Assembly: GCA_030066985.1 (NCBI GenBank)
Contig: JASJAN010000001.1
Location: 69,976-133,975 of the forward strand
Direction of reading: 5' to 3'
From: Desulfobacterales bacterium
GTDB taxonomy: Bacteria; Desulfobacterota; Desulfobacteria; Desulfobacterales; JAHEIW01
Length of the DNA stretch: 64,000 nt
How positions within the stretch are numbered: the first letter of the stretch is position 1; each line of letters starts with the position of its first letter. Made by a program: the position numbers and the translations under genes. The notes under the pieces are model-generated. The model worked only from the letters and a program-made list of their open reading frames with translations. It was not told the origin of the DNA and ran no database searches. Positions 1-57,903 of this stretch are shown here, in pieces.

Positions 1-114
1 AAGTGGCCTAAAGTGACTAAAGTTAAGGAATACTGCCATTTTAATAAAAAATGATGGAGCAGAGCGACACCACAACTTTAGGCACTTTAGCTCATTTTAG
101 GCATTTTAGACACT
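1..114. repeat. Oligomer-arm inverted repeat (element A). Left arm is 1-24 and right arm 74-114. The unit is ~GTGNCTAAA / TTTAGNCAC. The window edge may cut it.
   Basis: Left arm reads aagtggcctaaagtgactaaagtt. The right arm aactttaggcactttagctcattttaggcattttagacact is tandem copies of the complementary word. Confidence 0.5.
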
Positions 115-178
115 CCTTTTTATCTAGCAAATGCTGAGGTGCTCCTGTGTTTATGGAGCTTAGTCATATTAATGAAGA

Positions 179-1102
179 TCAAGGGGTGTTAATCACTGCC
201 AGCATTTCGTCAACGATCCGGTCGGCATCTTTGTACGCCACCTGGCAGGTCCCGACCTTTTTATGACCGCCACCACCATATTTGAGGGTTAATGACCCCA
301 CATCAACGGTGGCAGTCGGGTTAATGATACTGTGCCCGACCGAAATCATCGCAAAGGCCTTGTTCTTGCCGTTCGCAATTCGTATGGAAATATTCTGCCT
401 GGGATACAGGACATATTCCATAAAACGGTTGCCGACCGGGATGCTCTCACAGTTCCGCAGATCAAGAACAAGGGCATCCCCTTCGATTCTGGCCGTCTGG
501 GTAATCAGCTGCTCGTATTTGCGATTTTCTTCCTGATAAAGAACCACCCGCTCCTGAAAATCGGATAGCTTCAATATGTCGTCTACCTTTAGGGTGCGCA
601 GCAATCGAGGCAATTTTTTCATGAGCTCCAAATTGCTGATGGTAAAGCTGCGTTTATAGCCGAGGCCGGTGCGTGGATCGGAGATAAATGCCAGCATGGT
701 CCAGCCTTTTGGATGAAGAATTTCCTCTTTGGTAAATTGGGCCGAATCGGCTTTACCGGCAATTTCAATCAGCTCCTTAAATTTGGTTAACTTATCTGCA
801 TAATCTTTTTTCCGTCTGTAGTAATCATAGACGACTTGAGCGGCACTGGGTGCGTTTTTACTGGCACCTTTAAACCTGCCATCTAGCTGCAAGCGTTCAT
901 ATTCACTGGAATGATGATCAAACCAAAGCCCACAACCGTCGACAAAAGGCACATTTGCCAGAATATCATTTTTAGTGACGGCAATCTTGTTGTCCTGCAA
1001 GTCCTTGGGATGCACGTACAGGATATCATCGATAAGCCCCAGTTCCTCAAGAATGGCCGTACAGACTGAACCGTCAAAATCCGATCGCGTCAGTAATCTC
1101 AA
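179..1102 (-). CDS. DHH-family phosphoesterase (DHH/DHHA1, NrnA/exopolyphosphatase-related)
   Basis: Motifs DFDGSVC, WFDHHSS and C-terminal GGGGHKKVG. The preferred start is TTG 1102 (MRLLTRSDFDG), 6 nt after GGGAG. The longest ORF would start at ATG 1177. Confidence 0.75.
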   Translation of the reverse strand: MRLLTRSDFDGSVCTAILEELGLIDDILYVHPKDLQDNKIAVTKNDILANVPFVDGCGLWFDHHSSEYERLQLDGRFKGASKNAPSAAQVVYDYYRRKKDYADKLTKFKELIEIAGKADSAQFTKEEILHPKGWTMLAFISDPRTGLGYKRSFTISNLELMKKLPRLLRTLKVDDILKLSDFQERVVLYQEENRKYEQLITQTARIEGDALVLDLRNCESIPVGNRFMEYVLYPRQNISIRIANGKNKAFAMISVGHSIINPTATVDVGSLTLKYGGGGHKKVGTCQVAYKDADRIVDEMLAVINTP

Positions 1103-1175
1103 TAGTAGCTCCCTTTTTATGCCACCGCTTCCGTTATAAATATGTTTAGTATAAAATATTTTATAACATTGGGCC

Positions 1176-1215
1176 AATTTTTATATCGTAAAACCAAGGT
1201 GCCGATATAAAAATT
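1176..1215. promoter_or_regulatory. Perfect 13-bp inverted repeat upstream of the DHH gene; candidate operator
   Basis: aatttttatatcg (1176-1188) and cgatataaaaatt (1203-1215) are exact reverse complements with a 14-nt spacer. The repeat lies ~75-110 nt upstream of the TTG start. Confidence 0.3.
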
Positions 1216-1582
1216 AAACCCATTCAAAACAAGGTGTATCGAATAGATATCGGCATGTTTCAGGGAAAACATAAATTTGGCGTCATCTTAATTTCACAAA
1301 AGGACGTGTTGTTTTCCGGCAGGCGCGCTATCGAACCAAAACCATCCATCATCGTTAGGGATCACGTATTGCATGTGATTCGCACATAAGTCCATGTAAT
1401 ACCATACAATTTGGACTGGATTCCCAATATGAAGCCACCTGTAAGCGGGGTCTCATAGGGACTGCAGAGCACGTTAAATGCACTATACCGACACGAAATT
1501 TCGCCTCGCCGAAGGGAAAACGTCATGACTGTACCACGATTCTTTCGCTCCGGAACCTTTACTTTGCACCAAGACATTGCTT

Positions 1583-2296
1583 CTAGGGCAAAGACATAAC
1601 GGACGTCCAGCGCTCGTATTCGGTTACATGGGGCAGTGCTCTTGCTTTCAGGATGGCGATCATAGCAGGATCATTGAATCTTAAAAATGGATTGATTTTA
1701 TGCTCTTGTTCAAGGCTGGAGCAGACGCAATGGGGATCATAATTTTCACGGAAGCGATCGATCTCTGAATTTGAAGGTTCAATTAATTTGGCGACCTGCA
1801 TGGAATAGTTGACATAGTCATGGCCGGCATAGATGCGGGTATGATCGGAAAAACCCATAATCAATTTGATGGATTCGAAAAACCGCTGCATGCCACCGGA
1901 AAAACAGCTGCCCACATTACCGTTGAAAAGTGTATCGCCGGTTAAAAGCGTGTCGGCTGTATGGAAAATGACCGAGTCTTCGGTATGGCCAGGGGTGTGG
2001 TACACCCTGATTTTATGGCCATCAAGCACCAATTCCCTGATCCTGCTCAAGCTCTGTGCGTTCAGGTGTGCGGCGCTGGTGTGATCGATCAGCTGTTGAT
2101 GACCGCAGATATGATCCGGATGCGAGTGAGTCTGGGTGACAATATCAAGTTGCAACCCCCGGGCATTGATATATTCGAGCATCGCTTCGACGGCGCCCCC
2201 ATCGACCGCCAAAGCGGAAGTTTTCCCGTAAATCAGATAGCCCAGATTATCGGTTGCGTAGCGAAACTGTTTGACATGTAAGCGCATGTCGGCCAT
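1583..2296 (-). CDS. gloB: Hydroxyacylglutathione hydrolase-like MBL-fold hydrolase (glyoxalase II)
   Basis: HSHPDH (HxHxDH) metal motif, TPGHT, AGHDY and C-terminal NPFLR. The ATG overlaps the upstream stop (TAATG), which suggests translational coupling. Confidence 0.75.
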   Translation of the reverse strand: MADMRLHVKQFRYATDNLGYLIYGKTSALAVDGGAVEAMLEYINARGLQLDIVTQTHSHPDHICGHQQLIDHTSAAHLNAQSLSRIRELVLDGHKIRVYHTPGHTEDSVIFHTADTLLTGDTLFNGNVGSCFSGGMQRFFESIKLIMGFSDHTRIYAGHDYVNYSMQVAKLIEPSNSEIDRFRENYDPHCVCSSLEQEHKINPFLRFNDPAMIAILKARALPHVTEYERWTSVMSLP

Positions 2297-3336
2297 TAAA
2301 CACCGGCCTCTTCGGGTGTGATCACCCGCATCTGACGTCTCTGGCCACGAATAAGGTCAATTTCAACCGGTTTTCCGATGGGCCATTCCGCCAGAAAACG
2401 ATGCAGGTCATCGACACTTTCAACATCCACCTGGTTGATGGCCACGATTAAATCATTGACCCGCAATCCGGCCTGTGCGGCCGGGCTAGCAGATTCGATG
2501 GTTAACACCTCGACGGCATGACGCTTGTTTAAACCGTGAAAGCGAACGATGGGGCGGTCAAGGGGCCGCTGCCGACCTGCAATGCCCAGATAGCCGCGGC
2601 GCACCCGTCCATGAGAAAGAATCTGGGACACCACCCACCGGGCAGTTGTGCCCGGAATCGAAAAACCGATCCCCTGGGCCATGGGAATAATAGCGGTATT
2701 GATGCCCACCACCCTGCCGGCTGAATCGACCAGCGGCCCGCCGGAGTTTCCGGGATTCAGCGGTGCCGTGTGCTGGATGATATTTTCAATCAACCGTCCC
2801 TGGGTGCTTCGAAGCGCCCTTCCCAGCGCACTGATCACACCTGTGGTGACGGTCGATTGAAAACCAAAGGGATTTCCCATGGCAATGATCAATTGACCGA
2901 CACGCAACCGCTCGGAGCTGCCCAGTGTTGAGCACGGCAAATAAGCGGTATCCGCCCGGATAACGGCCAGGTCGGTTGCCGGGTCCTGGCCGATGAGAGT
3001 GGCTGAGAGCGAGGTGCCGTCGGTCAAGCGGACGTTCAGCCGATCGGCATTTTGCACCACATGATCGTTGGTCAGAATATAGCCATCCGGGGCAATGACC
3101 ACACCGGAACCGGCGCCGGTCTGATCCGCTTCAGTGCCGCGCCGCTGTTGACCGACTGCAATGCTGACCACAGCCGGGCCCACTGAATCCACCACCGAAA
3201 CCACCGCCCGCGAATACGCGTCAAGCAACTCCAAATCGGCATCTCCGGCCGGTCTGTGCTCCGATGATTCGGTGGCATTGCTGTCGTCCGATTCTGCCGC
3301 GATTAATTTCAGCAGGTGCTCCAGTTGGGCATTCAT
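2296..3336 (-). CDS. HtrA/DegP-family trypsin-like serine protease with C-terminal PDZ domain
   Basis: Catalytic-triad contexts TNDHVV, DLAVI and GNSGGPL, followed by a PDZ-like C-terminus (GLRVNDLIVAINQ). Confidence 0.85.
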   Translation of the reverse strand: MNAQLEHLLKLIAAESDDSNATESSEHRPAGDADLELLDAYSRAVVSVVDSVGPAVVSIAVGQQRRGTEADQTGAGSGVVIAPDGYILTNDHVVQNADRLNVRLTDGTSLSATLIGQDPATDLAVIRADTAYLPCSTLGSSERLRVGQLIIAMGNPFGFQSTVTTGVISALGRALRSTQGRLIENIIQHTAPLNPGNSGGPLVDSAGRVVGINTAIIPMAQGIGFSIPGTTARWVVSQILSHGRVRRGYLGIAGRQRPLDRPIVRFHGLNKRHAVEVLTIESASPAAQAGLRVNDLIVAINQVDVESVDDLHRFLAEWPIGKPVEIDLIRGQRRQMRVITPEEAGV

Positions 3337-3602
3337 TTACCAATGTCCTTCGGCGTTTTATGATACAGCGCAGGCTGTACTTGGTAACGATAACTAGACT
3401 AAAGATAGATATGCGATTTGGCAATTCAAGCCTGCGTCACAAAATAAAGGCCGAAAAAGCAGTGTTTTGTAAATGATTGACGTTATCTTTGAACGCCTTG
3501 ATATTTCGAGATTAGCTGCTTAAGTTCACCAAGTGGCCGAAGCTGCTTCAGTCTATTAGCCCTCGTCGAGATTGATTTAGCAGCCGCCCGCCAGTCGCAG
3601 AC

Positions 3603-6600
3603 CTATCGCAGCTGAACTTCCTGAAAGGGCAGGTTCCGACTGCGCGCCAGGCGTTTGAGGTTTTCTTCCAGAGTTTCCGCCTTGCCGTCTGGTGACGACA
3701 CGCTGATGCTTTTATCTCCCACGATAAAAATTTGAACTTTTTGGGGATCAAGAAGCTGCAGCGCCAATCGGTGCAGATCTTCTTTGGTGGCACTCATGTA
3801 GGCATCCTGAATTCGTTCGAGGGTATCCAGTGGCTCCCGGCGCAAATGGTAACGCCCGTATACATCCACCAGCTCGGATTTGGTATCCACGTTAAAAACA
3901 AAGCTGTTGAGCGCATCCAGTCGCTTTAGTTCCAACTCTTTTTCGGGAATCTTATCGCGCAGGGCATCCATCAGTTTTAGCGTTTCCGCAATCGCTGCAG
4001 TGGTCTGATCGCCTTTGCAGCCAATGTAACCCACCAATTGGCCGGCCTGCCATTTATAAATTTGGTAAAAGCCGGCTGAGTAAACCAGACCCAGATCATC
4101 GCGCAACCGTTTGTACATCAGCGAGTCATTGCCTCCAAAAACAGTCATCAAAAGGCTGGCTTTCCAGTAATCCGGGTGGGTGCGTTTGACACTCGGCAAG
4201 CTCAAAATCACCTGAGATTGCACCTGGCCGGGTTTGTCGACCAGCACCACAACCGGTGGGGTCACGGCCGGATCCTTTAAATTTCGCTGCGGCGCCGGAC
4301 GTTTCGGAAAAGCCTGTAAAAAAGGCCTCAAACCGGCAGTGATTTGATCTTTGTTGGTATCCCCGGCGATGGCAATGGTCATGTTTTCAGGGACAAAGTA
4401 AGTCTTTAAAAAGTCCTCCAGTGCTTTAGATGATATGTCGGGTATTGTCTGCAGGCCGATCAGCGGATCTCGGCCATAAGGGTGATCGTTGAAATGCCAT
4501 ATTTTACTTTCACGCATGGCCACCGACATGGCATTGCCCCCCTGCCGTTTTAGCGATACAAGCTCCTGGTTTTTGGCCACCTGCAGGACACCCGGATCAA
4601 AACCGGGTTGTGTCAGCACCTCCTGCAATAGCTTCAGCCCCTTTTCCCAGTCAGCTCTCATCACCGAAAGCCGAACCGAGGTCTGCTCTTCATCCACCGA
4701 CACGCTGAGTTGAATGGCATTTTCATCCAGTACCAGGGCCAGCTCGTTGGGTGACAGTGTCCGGGTTCCACCGCGTACAATCACGTTGCTGAAAATATCG
4801 GCTAAACCGGTCTTGGACTTCTCAAGGTCAACCGATCCAGCCTTTAACAAAATCGTCAGATCAATCAGCGGCAATTCGGTATCCGGCAAGAAAAACACTT
4901 TGACCTTTTCGACCTCAAAGGTCTGGGCCCGGGGGTATACAATTTTTTGAGGGTCGCGTTTAAAAGAGAGCGGATGCTTCCATTTCTTAGGTGTGGGAAA
5001 CTCGGACCTGTTTTTGAAGTCACCCTGATAAGTCAAATTGGCTGCCGCGCCAGAGCTAATATTGCGCACTTCGGTGTATTGGGCGGGCGGTTTATCGGGT
5101 TTACCACCGGGTATCACATAAGCCACGGTTTTATTGGTGGAGCGAATATATTTTTGAGCTGCGGCTTGGATGTCGGCGGGCGTAACCGCATCCAGTTGTG
5201 CCAGATAGTCAGCTAAATAGCGCCAGCCCACCTGTACCTCAAGGGTCGCCAACGTGCCGGCCAGGCTTTCGTTGCTGCGCATGCGGTCCAAAAAGTCCCG
5301 CTGGTTGAGTTTTTTAATGCGCGCCAGCTCGCGTGCAGATACTGGTGCGGTTTTAAATTTTTCGATTTCAGCAACCAGCAGGGCTTCGAGCTTTTCACAG
5401 GCGGCCAGATAGGCCTGCCGCCGCTGGTCTTCACTCATCTGATCGGCGCCCTGTTTGAAAGCTTGAGGCTCATTGGGTGATCCGCCGACAATCAGCATGC
5501 CGCCATAGCGATTATCCGGATTATAGGCCCAGGCCTCAACAGCCAACCCCTGGTTGATGATATTCTGGGTCATGCGCGCGCCCCGCCCATGGCTCAGGAC
5601 CATTGTTAGAGCATCGAGGGCATAAAAATCAGCAGTGCCCATTTGAGCGCCATGGTAGCCGATTCTGACCAGCGGTGTGCGCGCGCCCTTTAAAAAACGT
5701 ATGTTCCTGCGCGGTCCCTGCTGGAGCGGCTCCTGTGTGACCCTTTCAGGGGCGCGTGTTCCGGCCGGGTAACGCGCAAAATAGGTTTTGGCCATTTGTT
5801 TGGCCTGTGCCACAGTGACATCTCCGACCAGCACGCAAACCGCATTGGCGGGATTGTAGTATTTTTTGTGAAAATCAATGGCATCCTGAGTGCTGTATTT
5901 TTCCATATCGCTTTTCCAGCCGATGGTCGGATTGCGATACGGGTGGGCGGTATAGGCGGTTGCATTCAGATCCAGCCAGGCCGCCCCGCCAGGATCATTG
6001 ATGTAACGAAAGGCCCACTCCCGCTGCACCACTTCTTTTTCAACGTAAAATTCACGCCAGGAGGGTTCAAGAATCTGTTCACTGGCGATGGAAAACCATT
6101 GTTCCAGCATGTCCGAAGGGACCGAAGCAATATACTGCGTCTGATCTTTGGATGTAAACGCATTGATACCCACTGCCCCGATTTTACCCAACTGGGATGA
6201 AAATGCCTGGGGCACATAGATTTTCTGGACTTCAGCGCGCAATTTTTCCATTTCAGCGCGTTTTTGCTCGATCAGCTTCTCGTTGGGAGATCGTTTCTCC
6301 TGCTCACTGAGAATGCTTTGATAGGCGGCTTCAATTTGCTGTTGCAGTTTTGCGTCTTTGGCAATATCCAGGGTGCCAAAATTTTTAGTCCCCTTGAACA
6401 TCATATGCTCGAGCAAATGCGCAATACCGGTGCGACCGGTTTCTTCGAGGGACGATCCGGCACGGATTGCCAGGCGGACGGCTACCTGGGGGGTTGCCGG
6501 CCGTTCTACCACCAAAAACAGCATCCCGTTTTCCAGCTGAAATTCTTTGACATTAAGCTGAATATCAAGCGTTGAATCCGCAGCCGGGATAGGGTCTGCG

Positions 6601-6650
6601 GTCAAAAACAAAAGCAGGAAACCGAAAAGCAGCAATTTTTTGATACGCAT
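3603..6650 (-). CDS. Secreted M16 (pitrilysin/insulinase) zinc peptidase; double-length fused form
   Basis: N-terminal signal peptide MRIKKLLLFGFLLLFL and the HLLEHMMFKGT (HxxEH) zinc motif. At 1015 aa it equals two tandem M16 modules. Confidence 0.85.
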   Translation of the reverse strand: MRIKKLLLFGFLLLFLTADPIPAADSTLDIQLNVKEFQLENGMLFLVVERPATPQVAVRLAIRAGSSLEETGRTGIAHLLEHMMFKGTKNFGTLDIAKDAKLQQQIEAAYQSILSEQEKRSPNEKLIEQKRAEMEKLRAEVQKIYVPQAFSSQLGKIGAVGINAFTSKDQTQYIASVPSDMLEQWFSIASEQILEPSWREFYVEKEVVQREWAFRYINDPGGAAWLDLNATAYTAHPYRNPTIGWKSDMEKYSTQDAIDFHKKYYNPANAVCVLVGDVTVAQAKQMAKTYFARYPAGTRAPERVTQEPLQQGPRRNIRFLKGARTPLVRIGYHGAQMGTADFYALDALTMVLSHGRGARMTQNIINQGLAVEAWAYNPDNRYGGMLIVGGSPNEPQAFKQGADQMSEDQRRQAYLAACEKLEALLVAEIEKFKTAPVSARELARIKKLNQRDFLDRMRSNESLAGTLATLEVQVGWRYLADYLAQLDAVTPADIQAAAQKYIRSTNKTVAYVIPGGKPDKPPAQYTEVRNISSGAAANLTYQGDFKNRSEFPTPKKWKHPLSFKRDPQKIVYPRAQTFEVEKVKVFFLPDTELPLIDLTILLKAGSVDLEKSKTGLADIFSNVIVRGGTRTLSPNELALVLDENAIQLSVSVDEEQTSVRLSVMRADWEKGLKLLQEVLTQPGFDPGVLQVAKNQELVSLKRQGGNAMSVAMRESKIWHFNDHPYGRDPLIGLQTIPDISSKALEDFLKTYFVPENMTIAIAGDTNKDQITAGLRPFLQAFPKRPAPQRNLKDPAVTPPVVVLVDKPGQVQSQVILSLPSVKRTHPDYWKASLLMTVFGGNDSLMYKRLRDDLGLVYSAGFYQIYKWQAGQLVGYIGCKGDQTTAAIAETLKLMDALRDKIPEKELELKRLDALNSFVFNVDTKSELVDVYGRYHLRREPLDTLERIQDAYMSATKEDLHRLALQLLDPQKVQIFIVGDKSISVSSPDGKAETLEENLKRLARSRNLPFQEVQLR

Positions 6651-6846
6651 GGGTGTGTCTCCGTTAATCGTTAGGATAGTGCAGCTTTTTTAAGCTCAAT
6701 GAACCAATAATCATCAAAAATCATACAAGCCTATATTTTAATGGTCAAAATTAATTTGTCAAAACTCAGAGCGCATATTCGACTCTGTTTTGAGACCCGA
6801 AAATGGAGGGTATAACAAATTTCCACTAAAATCCAAGTGCCAGCCC

Positions 6847-6885
6847 ATAAAAAACGGCCCGGTATTTAAGGGTTACCCGGCCGTT
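6847..6885 (-). terminator. Rho-independent terminator (minus strand)
   Basis: aacggcccggta / tacccggccgtt stem (11 of 12 bp). On the minus strand it is followed by TTTTTT. It lies ~190 nt downstream of the stop at 7076. Confidence 0.6.
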
Positions 6886-7075
6886 CGCAATGAATCTTAA
6901 GTTTAATTAAGTATTTGTATTTATTTATTTTTTAATTTTTACAGGGATAGAGATGGGCCCATCAAAACGCTGACCTTCACGCAATAGATGATCAGTCCCG
7001 CTTGGCCGGAGTTAATGGTGCATATCGTGGCCGAATATCGCGAACACCCAGCCCCCCAACCATTTTGGCTGCAAA

Positions 7076-7714
7076 TCAGGCTTCGTACATGACCGCCACG
7101 ATGGTGGCTTTGCCCTTTTTGGCGGCAATGTGGTGGGTGGTGGTCGACAGGTAATAGGCACTGTCACCCGGCTCAAGTTCAAAGCGATCCTCACCGATTT
7201 CCAAAACCACTTCGCCATCGAGCACAAAGATAAATTCTTCGCCTTCGTGCAGCGAGGTTTCCTTATCGGGATCTTCTTCGAGCTGAACCAAAAAAGCCTC
7301 CATATGACGCCCCTTCACATCCGGCGCCAGGCTTTTATAGGTATAGATTTGTTTGCGGCTCTTCTGAGATGTCGACCGAGTGATGGTGCGCCGCTCGTTC
7401 TTGCGGGTGATGACATACAGTTTATCGCCCACACCAGATACCAGCCGGCCGAAGGCGCTGTCCAGTGCCTTTGATAGTTTGATCACGGTGCCCAGTTGGG
7501 GCTGCAGCTCTTTATTTTCGATTTTTGACAGAAAATCAACCTCAAAACCCGTCAATTTGGATATCTCATCGAGCGACAGATCCTTTTCTTCCCGGATTTT
7601 GCGGATGCGCTCTCCAACGTCATCCACGCTCTTGGGCGGCTCCACCGGAATATCACCGGTTAAATCTTCAAAAAAGTCAAAGTCAAAATGCGGCTTTTTA
7701 ATTTTATCTTGCAT
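7076..7714 (-). CDS. XRE-family HTH transcriptional regulator with C-terminal cupin domain
   Basis: HTH_3-like segment IRKIREEKDLSLDEISKLTGFEVDFLSKIE, then a cupin-like GEEFIFVLDGEVVLEIGEDRFELEPGDSAYY. Confidence 0.8.
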   Translation of the reverse strand: MQDKIKKPHFDFDFFEDLTGDIPVEPPKSVDDVGERIRKIREEKDLSLDEISKLTGFEVDFLSKIENKELQPQLGTVIKLSKALDSAFGRLVSGVGDKLYVITRKNERRTITRSTSQKSRKQIYTYKSLAPDVKGRHMEAFLVQLEEDPDKETSLHEGEEFIFVLDGEVVLEIGEDRFELEPGDSAYYLSTTTHHIAAKKGKATIVAVMYEA

Positions 7715-7763
7715 TTTAGCTCCTTATGGCAAATCGTTTGGTCTGATTAGATAAACTGCTGGA

Positions 7764-8921
7764 TTACAGACTTTTGGCGCCCAGATACCTGGCGATCACC
7801 AGCCGCTGAACCTCGGAGGTGCCTTCGCCGATTTCAAGCAGTTTCTGGTCTCTGTAAAAACGCTCGATATCATATTCTTTCATCAATCCGTACCCGCCGT
7901 GCAGCTGGACGGCATGATTGGCAGCGCGATACATCACCTCCGAGCAGTACAGCTTGGCCATAGCCGCTTCTTTGGCATAAGGCAGGGCATTGTCATTCAA
8001 CCAGCACGCCTTATACAGCAGCAAACGGGCGCATTCTATTTCGGTGGCCATATCCGCCAGCTTGAAAGCATTGACCTGGAAAGTGGCGATCGGGCGGCCG
8101 AACTGCTCGCGCTCCTGGCTGTATTTCATGGCCATGTCAAAACAGCCCTGAGCGCCACCGAGGCCCATAGCGCCTATGGACAGCCGGCCGCCATCTAAGG
8201 TTTTCATCATCTGGTGAAACCCTTGTCCGCGGGGTCCCAACAGGTTGTCTTTGGGAACCCGGCAATCTTCAAAATACAGTTCACTGGTATTGGAGGCGCG
8301 CCACATGAGCTTGCCGTGCATTTCTTTGGCGGTGTAGCCGGGGGTGCCGGATTCAACGATGATGCAGGACAGTTCCGGTTTGCCGTCATCCCGCACGCCG
8401 GTCCTCGCTAAAACGGTTGAGCCGGTGGTGATATCGGTGGCGGCATTGGTGATAAAAATTTTGCTCCCGTTAATGACCCACTCATTGCCGTCCAAAACGG
8501 CGGTGGTCTGGGTATTGCCGGCATCAGAGCCTGCATTGGGCTCGGTCAGACCGAATCCCCAGAGGGCCTCTCCGCTACACAGCTTGGGCAAATATTTCTT
8601 CTTCTGCTCTTCATTGCCGAAATAATACAGCGGGCCGATACCCAGTGAGTTTTCGGCGGCAACGGTGGCGGCATGCGATCCGTCAACCCGGGCGATTTCT
8701 TCAACCGCTATGATATATGATAAGTAGTCCATGGCTTGGCCGCCATATTGTTCGGAAACAAAAACCCCGAACAGCCCCAGCTCAGCCATTTTCTGCATCG
8801 TATCATAAGAAAATTCTTCTTTTTCATCCAACTCCTTGGCAACCGGCTTGATCTCCTTTTCGGCAAAACTGCGCACCGATTCACGCAAGATCTCATGGTC
8901 AGTTGAAAGGCTAAAATCCAT
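7764..8921 (-). CDS. Acyl-CoA dehydrogenase (short/medium-chain type)
   Basis: ACAD signatures GLTEPNAGSD and EIGEGTSEVQRLVIAR. Start is ATG 8921 directly after AAGGAG; the ORF-track start 8960 adds 13 unlikely residues. Confidence 0.85.
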   Translation of the reverse strand: MDFSLSTDHEILRESVRSFAEKEIKPVAKELDEKEEFSYDTMQKMAELGLFGVFVSEQYGGQAMDYLSYIIAVEEIARVDGSHAATVAAENSLGIGPLYYFGNEEQKKKYLPKLCSGEALWGFGLTEPNAGSDAGNTQTTAVLDGNEWVINGSKIFITNAATDITTGSTVLARTGVRDDGKPELSCIIVESGTPGYTAKEMHGKLMWRASNTSELYFEDCRVPKDNLLGPRGQGFHQMMKTLDGGRLSIGAMGLGGAQGCFDMAMKYSQEREQFGRPIATFQVNAFKLADMATEIECARLLLYKACWLNDNALPYAKEAAMAKLYCSEVMYRAANHAVQLHGGYGLMKEYDIERFYRDQKLLEIGEGTSEVQRLVIARYLGAKSL

Positions 8922-9068
8922 AAGCGCTCCTTTATCATCGGAAAATCCGACAATTATCAATTGGGGTCAGTAAACGAGCATTTTTTTATACGCTGGTCTG
9001 TGGTATGGTACTTGAAACTGGCCCATTTTATAGGCGCAAGACGTCGTGTTGTCAATCGTTATTGCAAA

Positions 9069-9158
9069 GGTTCCGGGTTCACCGTTCTGGGTTCAGGGTC
9101 GTATCTTTGAACCATTTAACCCTGAACCTTTGAGCCCTGAACCTCTGAACCCTGAACC
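9069..9158. repeat. Oligomer-arm inverted repeat (element B; unit GGTTC(N)GG / (CC)TGAACC)
   Basis: Left arm ggttccgggttcaccgttctgggttcagggtc. The right arm has five gaacc-containing units (ccctgaacc repeated). It sits in the divergent region between ACAD and mutM. Confidence 0.7.
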
Positions 9159-9168
9159 TTGACTGAAG

Positions 9169-9999
9169 ATGCCCGAGCTCCCCGAAGTGCAGACCATTGT
9201 CAATGACCTCAACGCTGCCGGCCTGCGAGGCCGAACCATCGATTCGGCCCGGGTTTTTTGGGCCCGCACGATTGCCGAGCCATCAGCCAGGGCATTTTGC
9301 AGCCGCATCAAAGGCCGGACGATCGCAGCCATCAAACGCCGCGGTAAATTCATTGTGTTTGGTTTTCAAAACGGCGGCCACTTGTTGATGCATTTGCGCA
9401 TGTCGGGCCGGCTGCATCTGGTGACCCCGGATCAACCCCGCAAAAAGCACGAGCATGTGCTGCTCGATCTTAGCGGTGGGCAACAGCTGCGCTTCCATGA
9501 TACCCGCAAATTTGGCCGCCTGTATCTGACCGCTGACGCTGCTCAAATTTTGAATCGTCTGGGGCCCGAGCCGCTTTCAAGGGGTTTTACACAAACACAA
9601 TTGGCCGCGGGTCTCAAGCCGCGCAAGCGTCTGTTAAAACCTTTGTTGCTCGATCAGTCCTTTATCGCCGGACTCGGCAATATCTATGTGGATGAAGCCC
9701 TCTGGGAATCAAAGGTTCACCCCTGCCGGAGGGCAGCCTCTTTGTCTGCGACCGAAATTCGAGCACTGTACCGTGCCATACCACGGGTGCTCAAACGGGG
9801 CCTTAAAAATCTGGGAACTTCGCTGGGGACCGGTGAAACCAATTTTTATTCGGTGGCCAGGCATCAGGGCCGCAATCGCGACCAACTGAACGTATTTCGG
9901 CGCACCGGACAGCCATGCCCGCGCTGCCGAACTGAAATTGAGCGCATTATCGTCGGCCAGCGCAGCACGCATATCTGCCCCTTATGCCAGAGGATTTAA
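9169..9999 (+). CDS. mutM: Formamidopyrimidine-DNA glycosylase
   Basis: N-terminal MPELPEV with the catalytic Pro2, and a C-terminal zinc finger CPRC...CPLC. Confidence 0.92.
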   Translation: MPELPEVQTIVNDLNAAGLRGRTIDSARVFWARTIAEPSARAFCSRIKGRTIAAIKRRGKFIVFGFQNGGHLLMHLRMSGRLHLVTPDQPRKKHEHVLLDLSGGQQLRFHDTRKFGRLYLTADAAQILNRLGPEPLSRGFTQTQLAAGLKPRKRLLKPLLLDQSFIAGLGNIYVDEALWESKVHPCRRAASLSATEIRALYRAIPRVLKRGLKNLGTSLGTGETNFYSVARHQGRNRDQLNVFRRTGQPCPRCRTEIERIIVGQRSTHICPLCQRI

Positions 10000-10056
10000 A
10001 TGCGTCTTGCCAATGTAATATAATTTTAGCCAGTTTCAAGCCAAAAGAGTACAAAA

Positions 10057-10132
10057 GGTTTCAGTGTTCAGGTGTCAGGTGTCAGCCCTTCTGATTGTCC
10101 CTGAAACCTGAGACCTGACACCCGAAACCTGA
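10057..10132. repeat. Oligomer-arm inverted repeat (element C); short member of the GGTGTCAG family
   Basis: ggtttcagtgttcaggtgtcaggtgtcag ... ctgaaacctgagacctgacacccgaaacctga. Confidence 0.75.
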
Positions 10133-10210
10133 TGTATATTATGGACTGACAAGAGAATTTAGGTGTTAACCTGACATAGATTAACTGATTTTGAAAAAGA
10201 GGAACAGAAG

Positions 10211-11152
10211 ATGCCCACCGGCGCCTGTGGTATTAACTGTGATATCTGCAAATTAAATCTGCTGGGGACCTGCTCCAGCTGCGGCCCGGGCACCAGCCCG
10301 CAGGCCGAACAAAAGCTGGCCGCTCAACATCGTTTACTGGGCGGCACCTGCGCCATTCTGGCATGTGCGCAATTAAACCGCGTGGACTATTGCCTGCGGG
10401 ATTGCGCTCAATTTCCCTGTGATAATTTCTCCAAAGGTCCCTACCCATTCAGCCAGGCGTATCTTCAGATGCAGGATCGCCGCCGTCAGCAAATCCCGCC
10501 GGCCTTCGCTCCGGATCAATCGCCGGTGGAAGTCCCGTCGCATTTCTGGGATGCGCTGCAATCCAAAGATCTCAACGCCCTTTGCAACTGGACCCTTTTC
10601 AGGCCGGCATCAGACCGCCAATTGGTCTTTCAATTCTTGAACGAAGAGGTGCTGGTGGATGTGGCCGAGCGCTGCCTGAAACGCGATAGCGGTGGGAGCT
10701 GGATAAATTCGCCAGACCCGTTGCTGGAGCTGGTCACTGTCATTTACCTGAATAACGTCAAACAGCTTATCCCCCTCGGCAGCGACATTGTGGGTGTCAA
10801 AGACCTCAAAGAGGCCCATTTTTTCCAGGGGCCCCATGTGCTGCAAACCGACCCCCTGCTGCAGCGCTACGGTCAGGACATCAGCGGTTTTACAGCAGCT
10901 GCCCGGTTTCTGGACGGACGTCCGGTGGACATGGCTGATGCGGCTTATGAGCTGTTTCCGTTTCCGCGCGTGCCGCTGTATTTTTTATTCTGGCAAGGCG
11001 ATGCCGAATTTGATCCCCGCATATCGGTGCTATTTGACCGCTCCATTGAAGCGGTTTTCGCCGCCGATGCCATCTGGGGCATAGTGAACCGAGTTGCCAC
11101 CGCTCTGTTGCAGGGGCCCGTTGCTGCAAAACCATCACCGGCAGACGAATAA
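10211..11152 (+). CDS. Cys-rich (putative Fe-S) protein with an uncharacterised DUF3786-like C-terminal domain
   Basis: N-terminus CGINCDICKLNLLGTCSSCGPG plus further Cys (CAILAC, CLRDCAQFPC). The family assignment is from memory of DUF3786-type proteins and is not verified. Confidence 0.55.
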   Translation: MPTGACGINCDICKLNLLGTCSSCGPGTSPQAEQKLAAQHRLLGGTCAILACAQLNRVDYCLRDCAQFPCDNFSKGPYPFSQAYLQMQDRRRQQIPPAFAPDQSPVEVPSHFWDALQSKDLNALCNWTLFRPASDRQLVFQFLNEEVLVDVAERCLKRDSGGSWINSPDPLLELVTVIYLNNVKQLIPLGSDIVGVKDLKEAHFFQGPHVLQTDPLLQRYGQDISGFTAAARFLDGRPVDMADAAYELFPFPRVPLYFLFWQGDAEFDPRISVLFDRSIEAVFAADAIWGIVNRVATALLQGPVAAKPSPADE

Positions 11153-11352
11153 TCACGGAAGCTGATGGAGCCCCTGGTTTAAGATAGCCTGCCGTCGCGA
11201 TAACCACCTTTCTTTTGAACTCCGGTCATATTCTCCTAAAGATTAACCCTAAATTATCTGATACCTATCACAGTTTCTCCTATAGACGGTGCCCAACATG
11301 GCACACAATTTCGCGTCAGCTTGTCAACTTCAGTTAGGAGGGGAATTTAATC

Positions 11353-12069: not shown

Positions 12070-12235
12070 GGCTAAAATCATCGACAACGTTAAGGGATTC
12101 GGGCTGCCCGAGCTGGTGGCTGCGCTGGGTGTTTTGGCCATTATCCTGGCGGTGGCCGTGCCCAATTTTTTGGACTGGCGCGCCAGCACCGAATTGCGCA
12201 GTTTACCGAAGAGCTTAGAGAAGTGGCCTAATTAA
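12062..12235 (+). CDS. Very short type IV pilin-like protein (57 codons); either a minimal pilin or a truncated remnant
   Basis: TTG start 6 nt after AAGGTGA, overlapping the upstream stop. It encodes KG|FGLPELVAALGVLAIILAVAVPNF (G|F, Glu+5) and ends after ~45 mature residues. It falls below the ORF-track length cutoff. Confidence 0.45.
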   Translation: MIKAKIIDNVKGFGLPELVAALGVLAIILAVAVPNFLDWRASTELRSLPKSLEKWPN

Positions 12236-12267
12236 CCATGTCCACGGCCATAAATGAAGGTAAACTC

Positions 12268-12856: not shown

Positions 12857-13242
12857 GTGTGCTGCTGTCTGTGTAGGAAAAAAATATCCTGGATCTTTTT
12901 TGTAATGGGACGCCGGCTTTTAGTGCCGACATACTGCCATTCAGTCACATCTCTTTAGGGATATGAACAACAATTTTTTTGGCCTGAATTTAGGCGATTT
13001 GTATAACAGCCCTCCCCCGCTCTGCCAGGCGGTCATGCTGCCTTCAGCCGGTGAATCGAAAGGTTATTTACGAGATAAGGCTGAAAACAACAACCCATGC
13101 CCTGATTCAGCAGATTTTAGTTTCAGGAAAGGGTTTCTGCCAATACCGTCCCCCTAAAAATGATTTGCATGCATATGATTTTAAGTGGGTAAGAACGTGA
13201 AAATCTAAATCGCATTTCTAACACACCGCTTAAGGGGGTCGA

Positions 13243-16038: not shown

Positions 16039-16115
16039 AGAATCACAAACTTAGCCGATCAGGCGTTGAAATTGCGCAATGGGAGAGGAGTTTCCTGTTG
16101 GCGGGATAATAAAGT

Positions 16116-16256
16116 AATGGAATGGTGGAAAAATGGAATGATGCACAAAGGACCACATGAGGCTTCGATTTTAATATCTAAAAAGGGCCATCAAATAACA
16201 ATTGATCTTAGAAGCCAATCTCAGCATTCCAATTCCACAATTCCAAGACCCCATTC
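16116..16256. repeat. Oligomer-arm inverted repeat (element D; unit TGGAA / TTCCA)
   Basis: aatggaatggtggaaaaatggaatgatg ... cagcattccaattccacaattccaagaccccattc, with an inner ggcttc/gaagcc pairing. It lies between convergent genes. Confidence 0.65.
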
Positions 16257-16261
16257 TTTTT

Positions 16262-27603: not shown

Positions 27604-27753
27604 GTTTCAGGTATCTATACTGATTTGGTTTCAGGTGTCAGGTGTCAGTATCAATAAGACTGAAATCTAAAAACAACAAAATCATTGCGACAGTGGCTGC
27701 TACTGAGTGACAAAAGCCAGAAATGGGCCGTCGAAGGCCTGACACCTGAAACC
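27604..27753. repeat. ~150-nt GGTGTCAG-family element (element E)
   Basis: Left end ggtttcaggtgtcaggtgtcag and right end cgaaggcctgacacctgaaacc. The internal spacer is recognisably similar to that of element H. Confidence 0.75.
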
Positions 27754-37692: not shown

Positions 37693-37764
37693 TAATGGAG
37701 TGTTGGAGTACTGGAGTATTGGATGTTTTTCCATCACTCCATCACTCCTATACTCCAATACTAC
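37693..37764. repeat. Oligomer-arm inverted repeat (element F; unit TGGAGT / ACTCCA x3, tight TTTTT loop)
   Basis: taatggagtgttggagtactggagtattggatg ttttt ccatcactccatcactcctatactccaatactac. Confidence 0.75.
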
Positions 37765-45413: not shown

Positions 45414-45517
45414 GGTGTGTGTTGTATTTGGTGTTTAGTGTTAGCAAGCTAAAATCCAATACAAAGCGATATAGTTCATACCAAACACCAAAAACTAAAC
45501 ACAAAACACTATACACC
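45414..45517. repeat. Oligomer-arm inverted repeat (element G; unit GGTGTTT / AAACACC)
   Basis: ggtgtgtgttgtatttggtgtttagtgtt ... ataccaaacaccaaaaactaaacacaaaacactatacacc. Confidence 0.7.
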
Positions 45518-50301: not shown

Positions 50302-50397
50302 CACGGTTTTGGGTTGAGCCGGTTGAAATCGGTATAATGTGTCTGATTTTATTTTTACGGGCCAACCGGCAACGGGCTCAACCGGCTTAACCGATTT
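50302..50397. repeat. Oligomer-arm inverted repeat (element L; unit CGGTTGA / TCAACCG)
   Basis: cacggttttgggttgagccggttgaaatcggt ... gccaaccggcaacgggctcaaccggcttaaccgattt. It lies between convergent genes. Confidence 0.65.
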
Positions 50398-56906: not shown

Positions 56907-56970
56907 GCCAAATGGCAATACCGGGCTGCAACCATACGAATCGCAATTGCCAAATCAAGGATGAGAACCC

Positions 56971-57672
56971 ATGCGTCCGGCTTTTATCAGGGTTGCGACC
57001 CAGATGGCAGTGGTTGTGTGGCTGACCTTAAACCCGTATGCACCCGGGAGAGGTGAATCCATGTCGCCGGCAAGTCCGACTCAGACGATTCAGTTGCCCG
57101 CAGCGCGCAGCGATGGAGATATCTCGGTCGAAAAGGCCCTGCAAAGCCGAAGATCGGTGCGCTCGTACAAGAAGGACCCCCTGAGTCTTGCCGAAATTTC
57201 CCAGCTCGTGTGGTCCGCCCAGGGAGTAACCCATCCGCGCGGTTTCCGGACGGCACCTTCGGCCGGAGCCCTTTATCCGCTGGAGCTCTATGTCATTGCC
57301 GGCCGGGTCAAAGACCTTCCCGCCGCCATATATAAATACCGCCCCGACCAACATGCACTGGTCAATATTATCTCCGGCGACAAGCGATCAGAGATCAGTC
57401 GTGCGGCTCTGCGCCAAGGGGCCATCAAAAAAGCACCCGTCGTCTTGCTGTTTTGTGCCGTTTATGCGCGCACCACCGATAAATACGGCCGACGCGGTCT
57501 GCGCTACGTCCACATGGAAGTTGGCCATGCGGCCCAAAACGTAAGCTTGCAGGCAATCGCGTTGGGGCTTCAGACAGCAGTGATCGGTGCTTTTAGGGAT
57601 GAGGCGGTCAAAGAAATCGCCCGATTGCCCGTTGATGAACAGCCGTTGTACTTGCTGCCCGTCGGGCGGTAA
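56971..57672 (+). CDS. SagB/ThcOx-type nitroreductase-family dehydrogenase with an N-terminal hydrophobic leader
   Basis: SRRSVRSY, LSLAEISQLVWSAQGVT, PSAGALYPLELYV and RYVHMEVGHAAQN. Confidence 0.8.
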   Translation: MRPAFIRVATQMAVVVWLTLNPYAPGRGESMSPASPTQTIQLPAARSDGDISVEKALQSRRSVRSYKKDPLSLAEISQLVWSAQGVTHPRGFRTAPSAGALYPLELYVIAGRVKDLPAAIYKYRPDQHALVNIISGDKRSEISRAALRQGAIKKAPVVLLFCAVYARTTDKYGRRGLRYVHMEVGHAAQNVSLQAIALGLQTAVIGAFRDEAVKEIARLPVDEQPLYLLPVGR

Positions 57673-57749
57673 ATCGGATTATCACTTCACCATTGGATTT
57701 CCTTGCTATTTTAAGAATTCGTGTTAAAAATTGGTACTATGCATAACTT

Positions 57750-57903
57750 GGTTTCAGGTGTTCCGCCGCAGGCGGATTCAGGTTTCAGTGAAGATGAGAC
57801 TAAAATCGAACACAACGAAAAGATCCGACTGATATTGCTATTCGGTAGCAAGGCCCGACATAGGTCACCGAAGGCCTGACACCTGACACCTGATAATGTT
57901 ATG
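57750..57903. repeat. ~150-nt GGTGTCAG-family element (element H) carrying an embedded TCCGCC-N3-GGCGGA hairpin
   Basis: ggtttcaggtg ttccgccgcaggcggattc aggtttcagtg ... cgaaggcctgacacctgacacctga. It shares an 18-nt identical right end and a similar spacer with element E. Confidence 0.75.

What the first reader, a model, noticed from the sequence alone, without database searches (positions are those of the whole stretch)
1..57903. Nine intergenic hairpins whose arms are tandem arrays of a degenerate 6-10-nt word, all with the same strand polarity
The nine elements are: A 1-114 (GTGNCTAAA), B 9069-9158 (GGTTC/GAACC), C 10057-10132 (GTGTCAG/CTGACAC), D 16116-16256 (TGGAA/TTCCA), E 27604-27753, F 37693-37764 (TGGAGT/ACTCCA x3), G 45414-45517 (GGTGTTT/AAACACC), L 50302-50397 (CGGTTGA/TCAACCG) and H 57750-57903. 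In each element one arm is 2-5 degenerate tandem copies of a short word rather than a unique sequence. The other arm is tandem copies of the complementary word, so many pairing registers are possible. The word differs between loci but the architecture is constant. In all nine the G/T-rich arm comes first on the + strand. The flanking gene orientations cover every class: divergent (B), convergent (D, L), co-directional plus (C, E, G, H) and co-directional minus (F). The polarity therefore does not follow transcription and could follow replication direction. I do not recognise this as a described REP, BIME or MITE type.
Basis: seen in the sequence. Interest (0 to 1): 0.65.

Follow-up and report, generated by a model that had tools for sequence, protein, structure and literature searches.

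The report
Palindromic heptamer-repeat intergenic hairpins
About a third of the larger gaps between genes in this Desulfobacterales genome hold a hairpin whose two arms are short tandem repeats of a 7-9-base word; such hairpins occur in many bacterial phyla, stay at the same gene gap for long evolutionary times while their sequence is rewritten, and their 'polarity' is a built-in symmetry and not a replication signal.

Summary
All nine hairpins exist. Multi-register hairpins are far above chance: 7 loci against 0.3 expected in shuffles. The "same strand polarity" cannot report a strand, because reverse-complementing [G/T arm]-loop-[A/C arm] gives the same order. The replication idea therefore fails on logic.

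A real intrinsic bias remains. The 5' arm is G-rich in 101 of 117 skewed tandem-word hairpins from many phyla. Ordinary hairpins in the same DNA show 71:60.

Orthologous gaps in related Desulfobacterales keep a hairpin but change the word. The gap upstream of fpg carries GGTTCAG, CAGAGGT or GGTGTCA in different species. Some arms hold graded intermediate words, with newer units nested inside decayed older ones. Loops are found flipped between lineages. In one case both arms changed by one unit together.

The hairpins are stable among 99.5%-identical strains. They show no sense-strand G·U signal and no U-tract, match no Rfam family, and no transposase lies in the window.

Best reading: REP-like palindromic microsatellites, kept up at the DNA level by slippage, arm-to-arm recombination and ectopic replacement, probably retained as symmetric structural elements between genes.

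The closest precedent is the convergent GGGAATC heptamer pairs of Xanthomonas. I rate this a new variant of a known, poorly understood kind.

The parts
1..114 (.). Element A, truncated by the window start. The word is AAGTGNCTA / TAGNCACTT with period 9. The left arm is 1-24 (it continues about 25 nt upstream of the window), the loop is 25-74 and the right arm is 75-114.
   Evidence: DNA fold z -3.65 on the full copy L001:805-950. The same element, loop included, sits in the same gap in the distant relative L134. It is replaced by an L-type hairpin in strains L005 and L006.
9069..9162 (.). Element B. The word is GGGTTCA / TGAACCC with period 7. The left arm is 9069-9099 and the right arm is 9108-9162. 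It ends 7 nt before the fpg start codon, in a gap between divergent genes.
   Evidence: 31 six-mer hits in 9 registers; z -5.55. Identical in 8 near-identical strains. The same gap holds a hairpin with a different word in 4 related species.
10057..10132 (.). Element C. The word is GGTGTCA/GGTTTCA with period 7. The left arm is 10057-10085, the 14-nt loop is 10086-10099 and the right arm is 10100-10132. It lies downstream of fpg.
   Evidence: z -6.10. The orthologous gap holds a hairpin in all 5 species. The loop of L131 is the reverse complement of the loop in the window and in L132.
16116..16250 (.). Element D. The word is TGGAATG / CATTCCA with period 7-8. The left arm is 16116-16142 and the right arm is 16225-16250, with an 80-nt interior. 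It lies between convergent genes and is followed by a run of seven T.
   Evidence: z -2.98.
27626..27753 (.). Element E. The arms are made of GGTTTCA/GGTGTCA units (left 27626-27648, right 27735-27753) around an 86-nt interior that is homologous to the interior of H.
   Evidence: z -4.80. In the relative L139/L141 the same gap holds the same element with a closely similar interior (my reading of the printed sequences, about 88% identical) and one more unit in both arms.
37693..37764 (.). Element F. The word is TGGAGTAY / RTACTCCA with period 8, in 3-4 units per arm, with a 6-nt loop.
   Evidence: z -5.24. The same word family is found in other gaps of L132, L134 and L022.
45414..45517 (.). Element G. 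The word is GGTGTTT / AAACACC with period 7, degenerate. This is the weakest of the nine.
   Evidence: RNA fold -25 to -28 kcal/mol, but DNA fold z only -1.52. The 5' arm is 90% G+T.
50302..50397 (.). Element L. The word is GGTTGAGCC / GGCTCAACC with period 9 (7-9). It lies between convergent genes.
   Evidence: z -3.78. The same word family occupies the A gap in strains L005 and L006.
57750..57895 (.). Element H, a homologue of E. The arms are made of GGTTTCA/GGTGTCA units (left 57750-57788, right 57873-57895).
   Evidence: E and H align end to end, including the interior, apart from a 17-nt insertion in H. z -2.63.
57762..57776 (.). A small C-first palindrome, TCCGCC-GCA-GGCGGA, nested inside the left arm of H. 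It belongs to a second dispersed family.
   Evidence: Further copies lie at 59311-59325 and 59393-59407 and in 8 fetched loci.
27604..27616 (.). A solitary GTTTCAGGTATC unit upstream of E, probably a decayed outer unit.
   Evidence: It corresponds to the decayed outer GGTATCA/GTGTCAG units that flank the inner arms in L137, L140 and L149.

Best explanation
These are palindromic microsatellites. Each is a pair of short tandem-repeat arrays, mostly heptamers (range 7-9 nt), in inverted orientation. They fill intergenic gaps much as REP/BIME elements do in enterobacteria.

Shown:
1. They are a widespread class and not a peculiarity of this genome.
2. Their polarity is the same after reverse-complementing, so it carries no strand information.
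3. A given gene gap keeps such a hairpin across species whose flanking proteins are only 63-89% identical, while the word is rewritten.

Inferred mechanism, acting at the DNA level:
- Slippage adds, removes and homogenises units within an arm.
- Recombination, gene conversion or template switching between the two inverted arms keeps them complementary. Its visible products are flipped loops and a unit change in both arms together.
- Exchange between hairpins at different loci, using shared arm units as homology, replaces the inner part. This leaves older units decaying on the outside.

No transposase is required.

Inferred role: the hairpins survive in gaps despite the deletion bias of bacterial genomes and look the same on both strands. 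They most likely serve as orientation-independent structural boundary elements, either as RNA stem-loops that block exonucleases or read-through, or as DNA cruciform or protein-binding sites. They are not canonical U-tract terminators.
For: Non-random architecture.

Strand symmetry of the polarity.

My scan found 53 full hairpins among them, in Acidobacteriota, Planctomycetota, Chloroflexota, Gemmatimonadota, Verrucomicrobiota, Armatimonadota and Desulfobacterota. Arrays of the word also turned up in cyanobacterial contigs.

Gaps keep a hairpin while the word changes:
- The gap upstream of fpg (B) and the gap downstream of it (C) hold a hairpin in 5 of 5 species, with words GGTTCAG, CAGAGGT, GGTGTCA, CAGAGGA and TGGAGTA.
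- The E gap holds one or more tandem-word arrays, mostly as hairpins, in the roughly 12 distinct relatives with 63-74% identical aminopeptidase for which the gap could be read. Among the relatives at about 50% identity that could be read, four have none (L160, L162, L163, L169) and one (L158, 54%) still carries arrays.
- An ordinary neighbouring gap (M16 peptidase | HTH-cupin) is simply conserved in sequence.

In-place evolution: L137 carries GATGTCA, GATGTCG, GAGGACC, GAGGTCA, GATGACA and GAAGACA in a single arm. Its outer units are GGTGTCA-like and its inner units CAGAGGA-like, and the other arm mirrors this. L140 and L149 show the same nesting.

Arm-to-arm recombination:
- The C loop of L131 is the reverse complement of the loop in the window and L132 (alignment score +7 inverted against -7 direct).
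- The A-type loop of L106 is inverted relative to L134.
- E in the window and E in L139 differ by one unit in both arms.

Ectopic exchange or replacement:
- E and H share arms and interior at unrelated loci.
- L133 uses CAGAGGA in three neighbouring gaps.
- The A gap carries an unrelated hairpin in L005 and L006, inside a 0.7-1.5-kb imported tract that is roughly 5-16% divergent.

Against a sense-RNA-only constraint: the sense strand is more stable in 10 and the antisense strand in 8 of 19 hairpins of known context.

No transposase or RAYT domain in the roughly 45 window ORFs for which Pfam results are available.

Precedent: convergent GGGAATC heptamer pairs in Xanthomonas lie between the same genes in two species, with length and sequence variation (PMC4692102).
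Against: - No direct evidence of function. There is no RNA or 3'-end data, and as a class the hairpins lack a U-tract (T is 0.27-0.31 at +1 to +12 in 133 flanks).
- Retention in a gap could reflect self-renewal without any benefit to the host. One gap (RecD2|TrmO) has lost or never gained the hairpin in the window lineage.
- No copy-number change is seen among 8-10 strains at 99.1-99.8% identity, so slippage is slow on that timescale.
- Units in the two arms of C are not mirror images (my reading), so arm-to-arm conversion is incomplete.
- The model does not explain why the 5' arm is G-rich in about 85-95% of cases.
- It does not explain why the same word recurs in distant phyla.
- A trans-acting enzyme elsewhere in the genome cannot be excluded from a 64-kb window.
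Confidence: 0.55

Rival explanations
1. [quoted passage not shown] Their terminal inverted repeats would consist of tandem transposase-binding subrepeats. A transposase encoded elsewhere would move them and would prefer existing hairpins as targets.
For: - Polarity is fixed within a word family: 40 G/T-first, 12 neutral and 1 apparent A/C-first for (GGTGTCA)n. That one case (L050) is two neighbouring half-hairpins.
- E and H are homologous over arms and interior at unrelated loci.
- Loops are conserved across MAGs (TTCTATGTTTCTTTTT in L013, L022 and L042).
- Presence/absence is seen in the RecD2|TrmO gap.
- Insertions are nested.
Against: - No target-site duplication is evident at E or H.
- E and H are clearly diverged (roughly two-thirds identical by my reading of the alignment), not near-identical copies.
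- Graded intermediate words within one arm argue for change in place.
- No transposase is found in the window.
- No array pair encloses an ORF-sized insert in the 814 kb examined (positions).
- Many different words in one genome would need many transposases.
- The boundaries of the indel are not precise.
Confidence: 0.17
2. They are selected RNA structures: terminators without a U-tract, 3'-end stabilisers or RNase III processing sites at the borders of transcription units. The tandem words would be a by-product of how such stems mutate.
For: - The hairpins are very stable (-25 to -57 kcal/mol as RNA).
- They are strictly intergenic, often 20-80 nt after a stop codon.
- They are retained in the same gap over long divergence.
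- D, L and E are followed by T-rich stretches.
- The Xanthomonas repeats lie preferentially close to stop codons (PMC4692102).
Against: - There is no sense-strand advantage: 10 against 8.
- There is no T-tract as a class.
- B sits between divergent genes, directly in front of a start codon.
- Selection for a stem does not predict tandem words, multiple registers, loop flips or nested arms.
- No Rfam family matches.
Confidence: 0.18
3. The arrays are binding sites for a protein with a footprint of about 7 nt. It could be a cold-shock-type single-strand binder loading on the first-transcribed G/U-rich arm, or a duplex-binding nucleoid protein. The inverted arrangement would reflect a symmetric complex.
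For: - The period is 7 in most elements.
- There is a polarity bias specific to this class: 101:16 against 71:60 for ordinary hairpins.
- The same word recurs in many phyla.
- PMC4679880 notes that CspB binds heptamer repeats, one protein per heptamer.
Against: - Words differ widely within one genome and turn over between close species, which a sequence-specific binder would not tolerate.
- Periods of 8 and 9 also occur.
- No candidate protein has been identified.
- The one specific binding idea I could test, outward-facing -35 boxes, failed.
Confidence: 0.07
4. One reading: the arm polarity tracks the direction of replication (leading versus lagging strand).
For: None beyond the nine-of-nine observation. 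GC skew in the window is flat.
Against: The polarity is unchanged by reverse-complementing. It is therefore identical on both strands and both replichores by construction and cannot encode a direction.
Confidence: 0.01

Closest known systems
Convergent (inverted) pairs of GGGAATC heptamer repeats in Xanthomonas campestris and X. axonopodis (Rehm et al. 2015, PMC4692102), within the heptamer over-representation that this paper attributes to a 2007 survey of prokaryotic SSRs (its reference 33)
   Same: - Tandem 7-nt units, mostly intergenic.
- 70-75 cases of two arrays on opposite strands in convergent orientation, which means the G-rich arm comes first.
[quoted passage not shown]
- No leading- or lagging-strand preference.
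   Different: - Xanthomonas has one dominant word with GGG runs, studied as a G-quadruplex former. Here at least five word families occur in 64 kb, most without G-runs.
- Arms here are degenerate.
- E and H have long homologous interiors.
- Nested arms, loop flips and the cross-phylum G-first rule were not described there.
REP / BIME / REPIN elements of enterobacteria and pseudomonads
   Same: - Intergenic imperfect palindromes.
- Present in all classes of gene orientation.
- From my own knowledge (not checked here): REP sequences are species-specific yet occupy homologous intergenic positions, and proposed roles include mRNA stabilisation, termination and DNA-structure or gyrase/IHF binding. 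(PMC3733652 abstract) lists similar proposed roles.
   Different: - REP arms are unique 20-40-nt sequences, not tandem words.
- Most carry a GTAG or CGTC tag at one end (PMC3733652 abstract). That tag is absent here except by chance next to F.
- REPs are tied to RAYT transposases. None is seen in the window.
Cyanobacterial heptamer repeats and the TAACTGA direct repeats of Beggiatoaceae (PMC4679880; bioRxiv 10.1101/2022.06.06.494920). The name STRR for the cyanobacterial repeats is from my own memory.
   Same: Intergenic tandem heptamers close to start or stop codons. Patchy distribution across phyla. Function unknown, with modest regulatory effects reported.
   Different: Those are essentially one-directional arrays (one inverted case among 170 TAACTGA sets) oriented relative to the downstream gene. 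Here the arrays come as inverted pairs that form hairpins.
Bacterial MITEs (for example Correia/NEMIS, Nezha, Chunjie; named from memory)
   Same: Size of 70-150 bp, terminal inverted repeats, intergenic, dispersed copies (E and H).
   Different: No target-site duplication, no cognate transposase found, arms built of tandem words, and graded change of the word in place.
Intrinsic (bidirectional) transcription terminators
   Same: A stable stem-loop after stop codons. D and L lie between convergent genes.
   Different: Stems of 20-35 bp with internal mismatches instead of 5-14 bp. No U-tract as a class. Also found upstream of start codons and between divergent genes.

Membership tests
Heptameric SSR inverted pairs (Xanthomonas type) | Head-to-tail tandem copies of a unit of about 7 nt, at least 2 units | tested here: met
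   TRF gives period 7 rows at B, C, E, G and H, period 8 at D and F, and period 9 at A and L, with 1.9-6.1 copies across rows.
Heptameric SSR inverted pairs (Xanthomonas type) | Two arrays on opposite strands in convergent orientation, close together, able to form a stem-loop | tested here: met
   Folds. The G-rich arm is 5' on both strands.
Heptameric SSR inverted pairs (Xanthomonas type) | [quoted passage not shown] | tested here: met
   B and C gaps 5 of 5 species. E gap in about 12 relatives.
Heptameric SSR inverted pairs (Xanthomonas type) | G-tracts (GGG, at least 4 units) able to form G-quadruplexes | tested here: not met
   The words GGTGTCA, GGTTTCA, TGGAGTA, TGGAATG, GGTGTTT, AAGTGNCTA and GGTTGAGCC have no GGG run. 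Only the B word (GGGTTCA) has one.
REP / REPIN | GTAG or CGTC tetranucleotide tag at one end of the palindrome | tested here: not met
   Reading the ends of A-H, only F has GTAG near both ends. The others have none.
REP / REPIN | Arms are a unique imperfect palindrome of 20-40 nt repeated with little change across the genome | tested here: not met
   The arms are tandem words. At least five word families occur in 64 kb. E and H are clearly diverged (roughly two-thirds identical by my reading of the alignment).
REP / REPIN | A cognate RAYT (Y1 transposase) gene in the genome | not testable with these tools
   None in the window ORFs. The rest of the genome could not be scanned.
MITE | Terminal inverted repeats and a size of 50-500 bp | tested here: met
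MITE | Target-site duplication flanking each copy | tested here: inconclusive
   The flanks of E (..gattt | tattt..) and H (..aactt | taatg..) share no convincing direct repeat. The indel boundaries in the RecD2|TrmO gap are imprecise.
MITE | An autonomous element whose transposase gene is bounded by the same ends | tested here: inconclusive
   No transposase in the window. No array pair encloses an ORF-sized insert in the 120 loci. Whole genomes were not searched.
Intrinsic terminator | Stem-loop followed at once by a U-tract | tested here: not met
   T is 0.27-0.31 at positions +1 to +12 of 133 outward flanks, no higher than A. Individual exceptions: D (T7), and partly E and L.
Any Rfam family | Covariance-model match | tested here: not met
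   Only the c-di-GMP riboswitch at 61569-61646, at the gathering threshold and at E up to 1.
Phase-variable (contingency) SSR | Unit-number polymorphism among closely related strains | tested here: not met
   B is identical in 8 strains, C in 9 strains (one SNP), and D shows only SNPs in 3 strains, at 99.1-99.8% identity.

The most novel reading that the evidence does not exclude
Tandem-word hairpins are a cross-phylum class of self-renewing palindromic microsatellites that obey an intrinsic rule: the G-rich arm is the 5' arm. On this reading they grow from the centre outward. The loop of the extruded hairpin is cut (SbcCD-like), and both resected ends then expose the G/T-rich strand as the 3' tail. 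That is the Chi-like, RecA-preferred orientation, so only this polarity is repaired and re-extended efficiently. Cassettes spread between gaps by gene conversion through shared arm units, without any transposase. The polarity rule would then be a footprint of a break-repair mechanism and not of function.
Probability: 0.12. Interest if true: 0.75.

Novelty: new variant of a known kind. Interest (0 to 1): 0.45.

Why it matters
Heptameric repeats are known to be over-represented in many bacterial genomes, but nobody knows why. These data tie several things together:
- a single architecture, the inverted pair;
- an intrinsic polarity rule that ordinary hairpins lack;
- long-term retention in the same gene gap with rapid rewriting of the word;
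- visible products of arm-to-arm recombination.

This gives a concrete, testable model of concerted evolution in a very small element. It also offers a simple experimental handle: flipping the polarity, or removing sbcCD or recA. Practically, such hairpins fill a large share of the intergenic space in Desulfobacterales and other environmental phyla. They extend ORF calls (Fpg in L133). They could easily be mistaken for strand-specific signals.

Tried and rejected
1. Replication-direction polarity. Rejected by symmetry.
2. Outward-facing -35 boxes (CTGACA in the A/C arm) forming promoters with a spaced -10. Of 106 flanks, 8.5% reach 9/12 matches, against 11-12% in shuffled or permuted controls. 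Rejected, although C has one such match.
3. Canonical intrinsic terminators. No T-tract enrichment.
4. Sense-strand RNA selection through G·U pairs. 10 against 8.
5. Hypermutable contingency loci. No unit changes among near-identical strains.
6. Rapid change in place as the cause of the different A-gap hairpin in L005 and L006. It lies instead in an imported divergent tract.
7. Rfam at the gathering threshold and at E up to 1. No hit on any hairpin.
8. A search for E/H interiors in 814 kb of other genomes. None found.
9. My first two detection scripts were too strict or too loose and were replaced.
10. An exact-sequence literature search for GGTGTCAGGTGTCAG. No paper found.
11. The idea that the TTGACA after the E-gap hairpins is a conserved -35 box. 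It is more likely a decayed outer TGACACC unit.
12. The count of 120 genome hits is not significant in itself. I estimate about 70 chance matches for a 17-mer in 596 Gb. The evidence is the array and hairpin context of the hits.


Full report
**Observation.**
I read all nine elements. Each is an inverted repeat whose arms are degenerate tandem copies of a 7-9-nt word. Tandem Repeats Finder reports arrays in at least one arm of every element.

As single-stranded DNA, eight of the nine fold much better than dinucleotide shuffles, with z from -2.6 to -6.1. G is weak at z -1.5.

I wrote a scan for inverted repeats that can pair in at least three registers spaced 5-10 nt apart. The window has 7 loci with at least 11 six-mer hits, against 0.3 expected. 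It has 6 loci with at least 15 hits, against 0.017 expected, in 60 block-wise dinucleotide shuffles. The C/E/H word occurs 9 times, against 0.07 expected. About a third of the roughly 27 gaps of at least 150 nt hold one.

Corrections:
- A is cut by the window start.
- E proper starts at 27626.
- H ends near 57895 and contains a nested 15-nt palindrome.
- E and H have long interiors.
- A is not G/T-rich.

The flanking genes are ordinary housekeeping genes: acyl-CoA dehydrogenase, fpg, a DUF3786 protein, an aminopeptidase, NifU, FabH, an OEP-family outer-membrane efflux protein, an MFS transporter and others. None is a transposase.

**The polarity argument.**
The reverse complement of [G/T arm]-loop-[A/C arm] is again [G/T arm]-loop-[A/C arm]. 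I verified this numerically for B-H: the 5' arm is G/T-rich and G>C on both strands. "Same polarity on the + strand" therefore cannot follow replication or transcription.

What remains is an intrinsic asymmetry, G-first against C-first.

**Source and strain comparison.**
The Fpg protein is encoded on 23 contigs read from public assemblies. Ten of these were fetched: Desulfobacterales MAGs and metagenome scaffolds, 99.1-99.8% identical to window 1-20000.
- B is identical in 8 strains and C in 9 (one SNP). D differs only by SNPs. These are therefore not hypermutable repeats.
- The A gap holds an unrelated hairpin with L-type words (GGGTTGAGCCCGTT...) in L005. In L006 it holds only a left-arm array of such words.
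- That difference sits inside a 0.7-1.5-kb tract that is roughly 5-16% divergent (4-16 mismatches per 100 nt) and is flanked by identity. The tract was imported by homologous recombination from a diverged lineage.

**A widespread class.**
By my estimate about 70 hits to a 17-mer are expected by chance in 596 Gb, so the count alone means little.

The context is what matters. The hits sit in longer arrays, and my scan found 53 full hairpins of the same architecture. They come from Acidobacteriota, Planctomycetota, Chloroflexota, Gemmatimonadota, Verrucomicrobiota (including Akkermansia), Armatimonadota and Desulfobacterota. Arrays of the word were also hit in cyanobacterial contigs. The same loci carry hairpins made of other words.

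**Polarity statistics.**
- Among seeded (GGTGTCA)n hairpins, 40 are G/T-first, 12 neutral and 1 apparently A/C-first. That one, L050, is the right arm of one hairpin next to the left arm of another (compare L018).
- Over all loci, 101 of 117 skewed hairpins (at least 15 hits) have G>C in the 5' arm. With at least 30 hits the count is 51 against 2.
- Among words outside the TCAG family the count is 40 against 16. Several of the 16 are coding-region false positives in high-GC genomes.
- In loci fetched by protein similarity, not by word, 11 are G-first, 0 C-first and 1 neutral.
- Ordinary perfect-stem hairpins in the same DNA give 71 against 60.
- True C-first families exist: CGAAATCC, GAACGTCCAAC and CCAAGNNG.

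The bias is therefore real, specific to this class and strong, but not absolute.

**Orthologous gaps.**
Four contigs encode Fpg at 78-89% identity and keep the order acyl-CoA dehydrogenase | fpg | DUF3786 gene.
- Every species has a tandem-word hairpin in both gaps, and the words differ. In the B gap they are GGTTCAG, CAGAGGT/CAGAAGA, GGTGTCA, CAGAGGA and a short GGTCC/GAACC form. In the C gap they are GGTGTCA (three species), CAGAGGA and TGGAGTG.
- A neighbouring ordinary gap is simply conserved in sequence.
- The A element, loop included, is conserved in the most distant of these contigs.
- The RecD2|TrmO gap has a TGGAGTA hairpin in two species and none in the window.
- The gap upstream of the aminopeptidase (E) was recovered from metagenomes. 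The roughly 12 distinct relatives at 63-74% identity whose gap could be read hold one or more tandem-word arrays there, mostly as hairpins. Of the relatives at about 50% that could be read, four have none and one (L158) still carries arrays.

**How they change.**
- L137, L140 and L149 show inner CAGAGGA/CAGATGA arms nested inside decayed GGTGTCA-type outer units, mirrored in both arms.
- One arm of L137 holds the graded series GATGTCA, GATGTCG, GAGGACC, GAGGTCA, GATGACA and GAAGACA. Words therefore change in place, and the newest units lie nearest the loop.
- The 15-nt C loop of L131 is the reverse complement of the loop in the window and L132. The A-type loop of L106 is inverted relative to L134. 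This is the expected product of recombination between inverted arms.
- E in the window and in L139 share a closely similar interior (about 88% identical by my reading) but have 3 and 2 units against 4 and 3 units in their left and right arms. One unit changed in both arms.
- E and H are homologous end to end at unrelated loci. H carries a 17-nt nested insertion.
- L133 uses one word in three neighbouring gaps. This points to exchange between loci.

**Function tests.**
- RNA energies of the sense and antisense strands in 19 hairpins of known context split 10 against 8. There is no G·U signature of a one-strand RNA.
- There is no T-tract after the stems.
- Outward CTGACA units do not pair with -10 boxes more often than in controls.
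- Rfam finds nothing at the hairpins.

**Literature.**
- Rehm et al. (PMC4692102) describe GGGAATC heptamer repeats in Xanthomonas. They report 70-75 convergent pairs, no leading- or lagging-strand preference, and location mostly between the same genes in two species with length and sequence variation. They cite an earlier report of heptamer over-representation and a polymerase-slippage hypothesis.
- TAACTGA repeats of Beggiatoaceae and cyanobacterial heptamers are one-directional relatives of unknown function.
- No paper holds the GGTGTCA array sequence.

**Conclusion.**
The elements are REP-like palindromic microsatellites. They are a multi-word, cross-phylum variant of the heptamer inverted pairs seen in Xanthomonas.

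The best-supported mechanism concerns their maintenance. Slippage within arms, recombination or templated correction between arms, and replacement from other loci keep a hairpin in a gap while its sequence is rewritten.

Their role for the host is inferred only: a symmetric structural boundary element, at the RNA or DNA level.

Two things remain unexplained: the G-first rule, and the recurrence of the same word in distant phyla. The geometry of the G-first rule matches G/T-rich 3' tails after a break in the loop. That is the most novel reading my evidence does not exclude.

Noticed in passing
window 61569-61646 (-): A c-di-GMP-I-GGC riboswitch (65.4 bits, E 3e-13) lies upstream of a GNA1162-like lipoprotein gene at 60569-61387 (-).
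   Followed up: no
window 57762-57776, 59311-59325, 59393-59407 (variant at 59340-59365); L005:881, L006:75 and 111, L084, L100, L102, L114, L134:14244, L152: A second small dispersed palindrome, TCCGCC-N3-GGCGGA, is C-first, unlike the tandem-word hairpins. One copy is nested in the left arm of H. Three lie in the convergent gap 59286-59510. One lies inside the L005 hairpin of the A gap.
   Followed up: partly
L133:10800-10861, and the Fpg homologue lengths: The left arm of the C-gap hairpin abuts or overwrites the fpg stop codon, so the called Fpg is 10 residues longer (286 aa). Many Fpg homologues are 285-290 aa instead of 275-276, which suggests that repeat arrays often extend this ORF.
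   Followed up: partly
window 8985-9062: A non-coding block of about 80 nt (…ctggcccattttataggc…gttgtcaatcgtta…) is conserved in all five species, directly upstream of the variable B hairpin. It may be a promoter or leader. No Rfam family matches it.
   Followed up: no
window about 11586-12340 and 12.7-13.5 kb: This stretch varies between strains. It is missing in L004, and the small ORF calls (59-200 aa) differ among the ten near-identical contigs.
   Followed up: no
window 23505-24755 (-) and 24760-25449 (-): The AICARFT/IMPCHase (purH-like) function is split over two adjacent ORFs. The MGS domain plus the first 60 profile positions are in one ORF and the rest is in the other.
   Followed up: no
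L001:0-1500 compared with L005; L001:700-1400 compared with L006: There are sharp recombination tracts, roughly 5-16% divergent inside and 0% outside, in otherwise 99%-identical strains. This shows homologous import from a diverged lineage in this population.
   Followed up: yes
window 37680-37692 and 37761-37768: F alone is bracketed by GTAG in inverted orientation (aaaaGTAGgcg … aataCTACaaag), the tag typical of REP elements. It is absent at the other eight elements, so this is probably chance.
   Followed up: partly
L145:312-420, L150:1433-1600: The E gap of these relatives carries a further G/T-first hairpin made of GTTTGATTG/GTTTAATT words next to a GGTGTCA array. L142 and L147 carry CTGGTTG/CTGGCGG arrays nested among others. 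Several word families can pile up in one gap.
   Followed up: no
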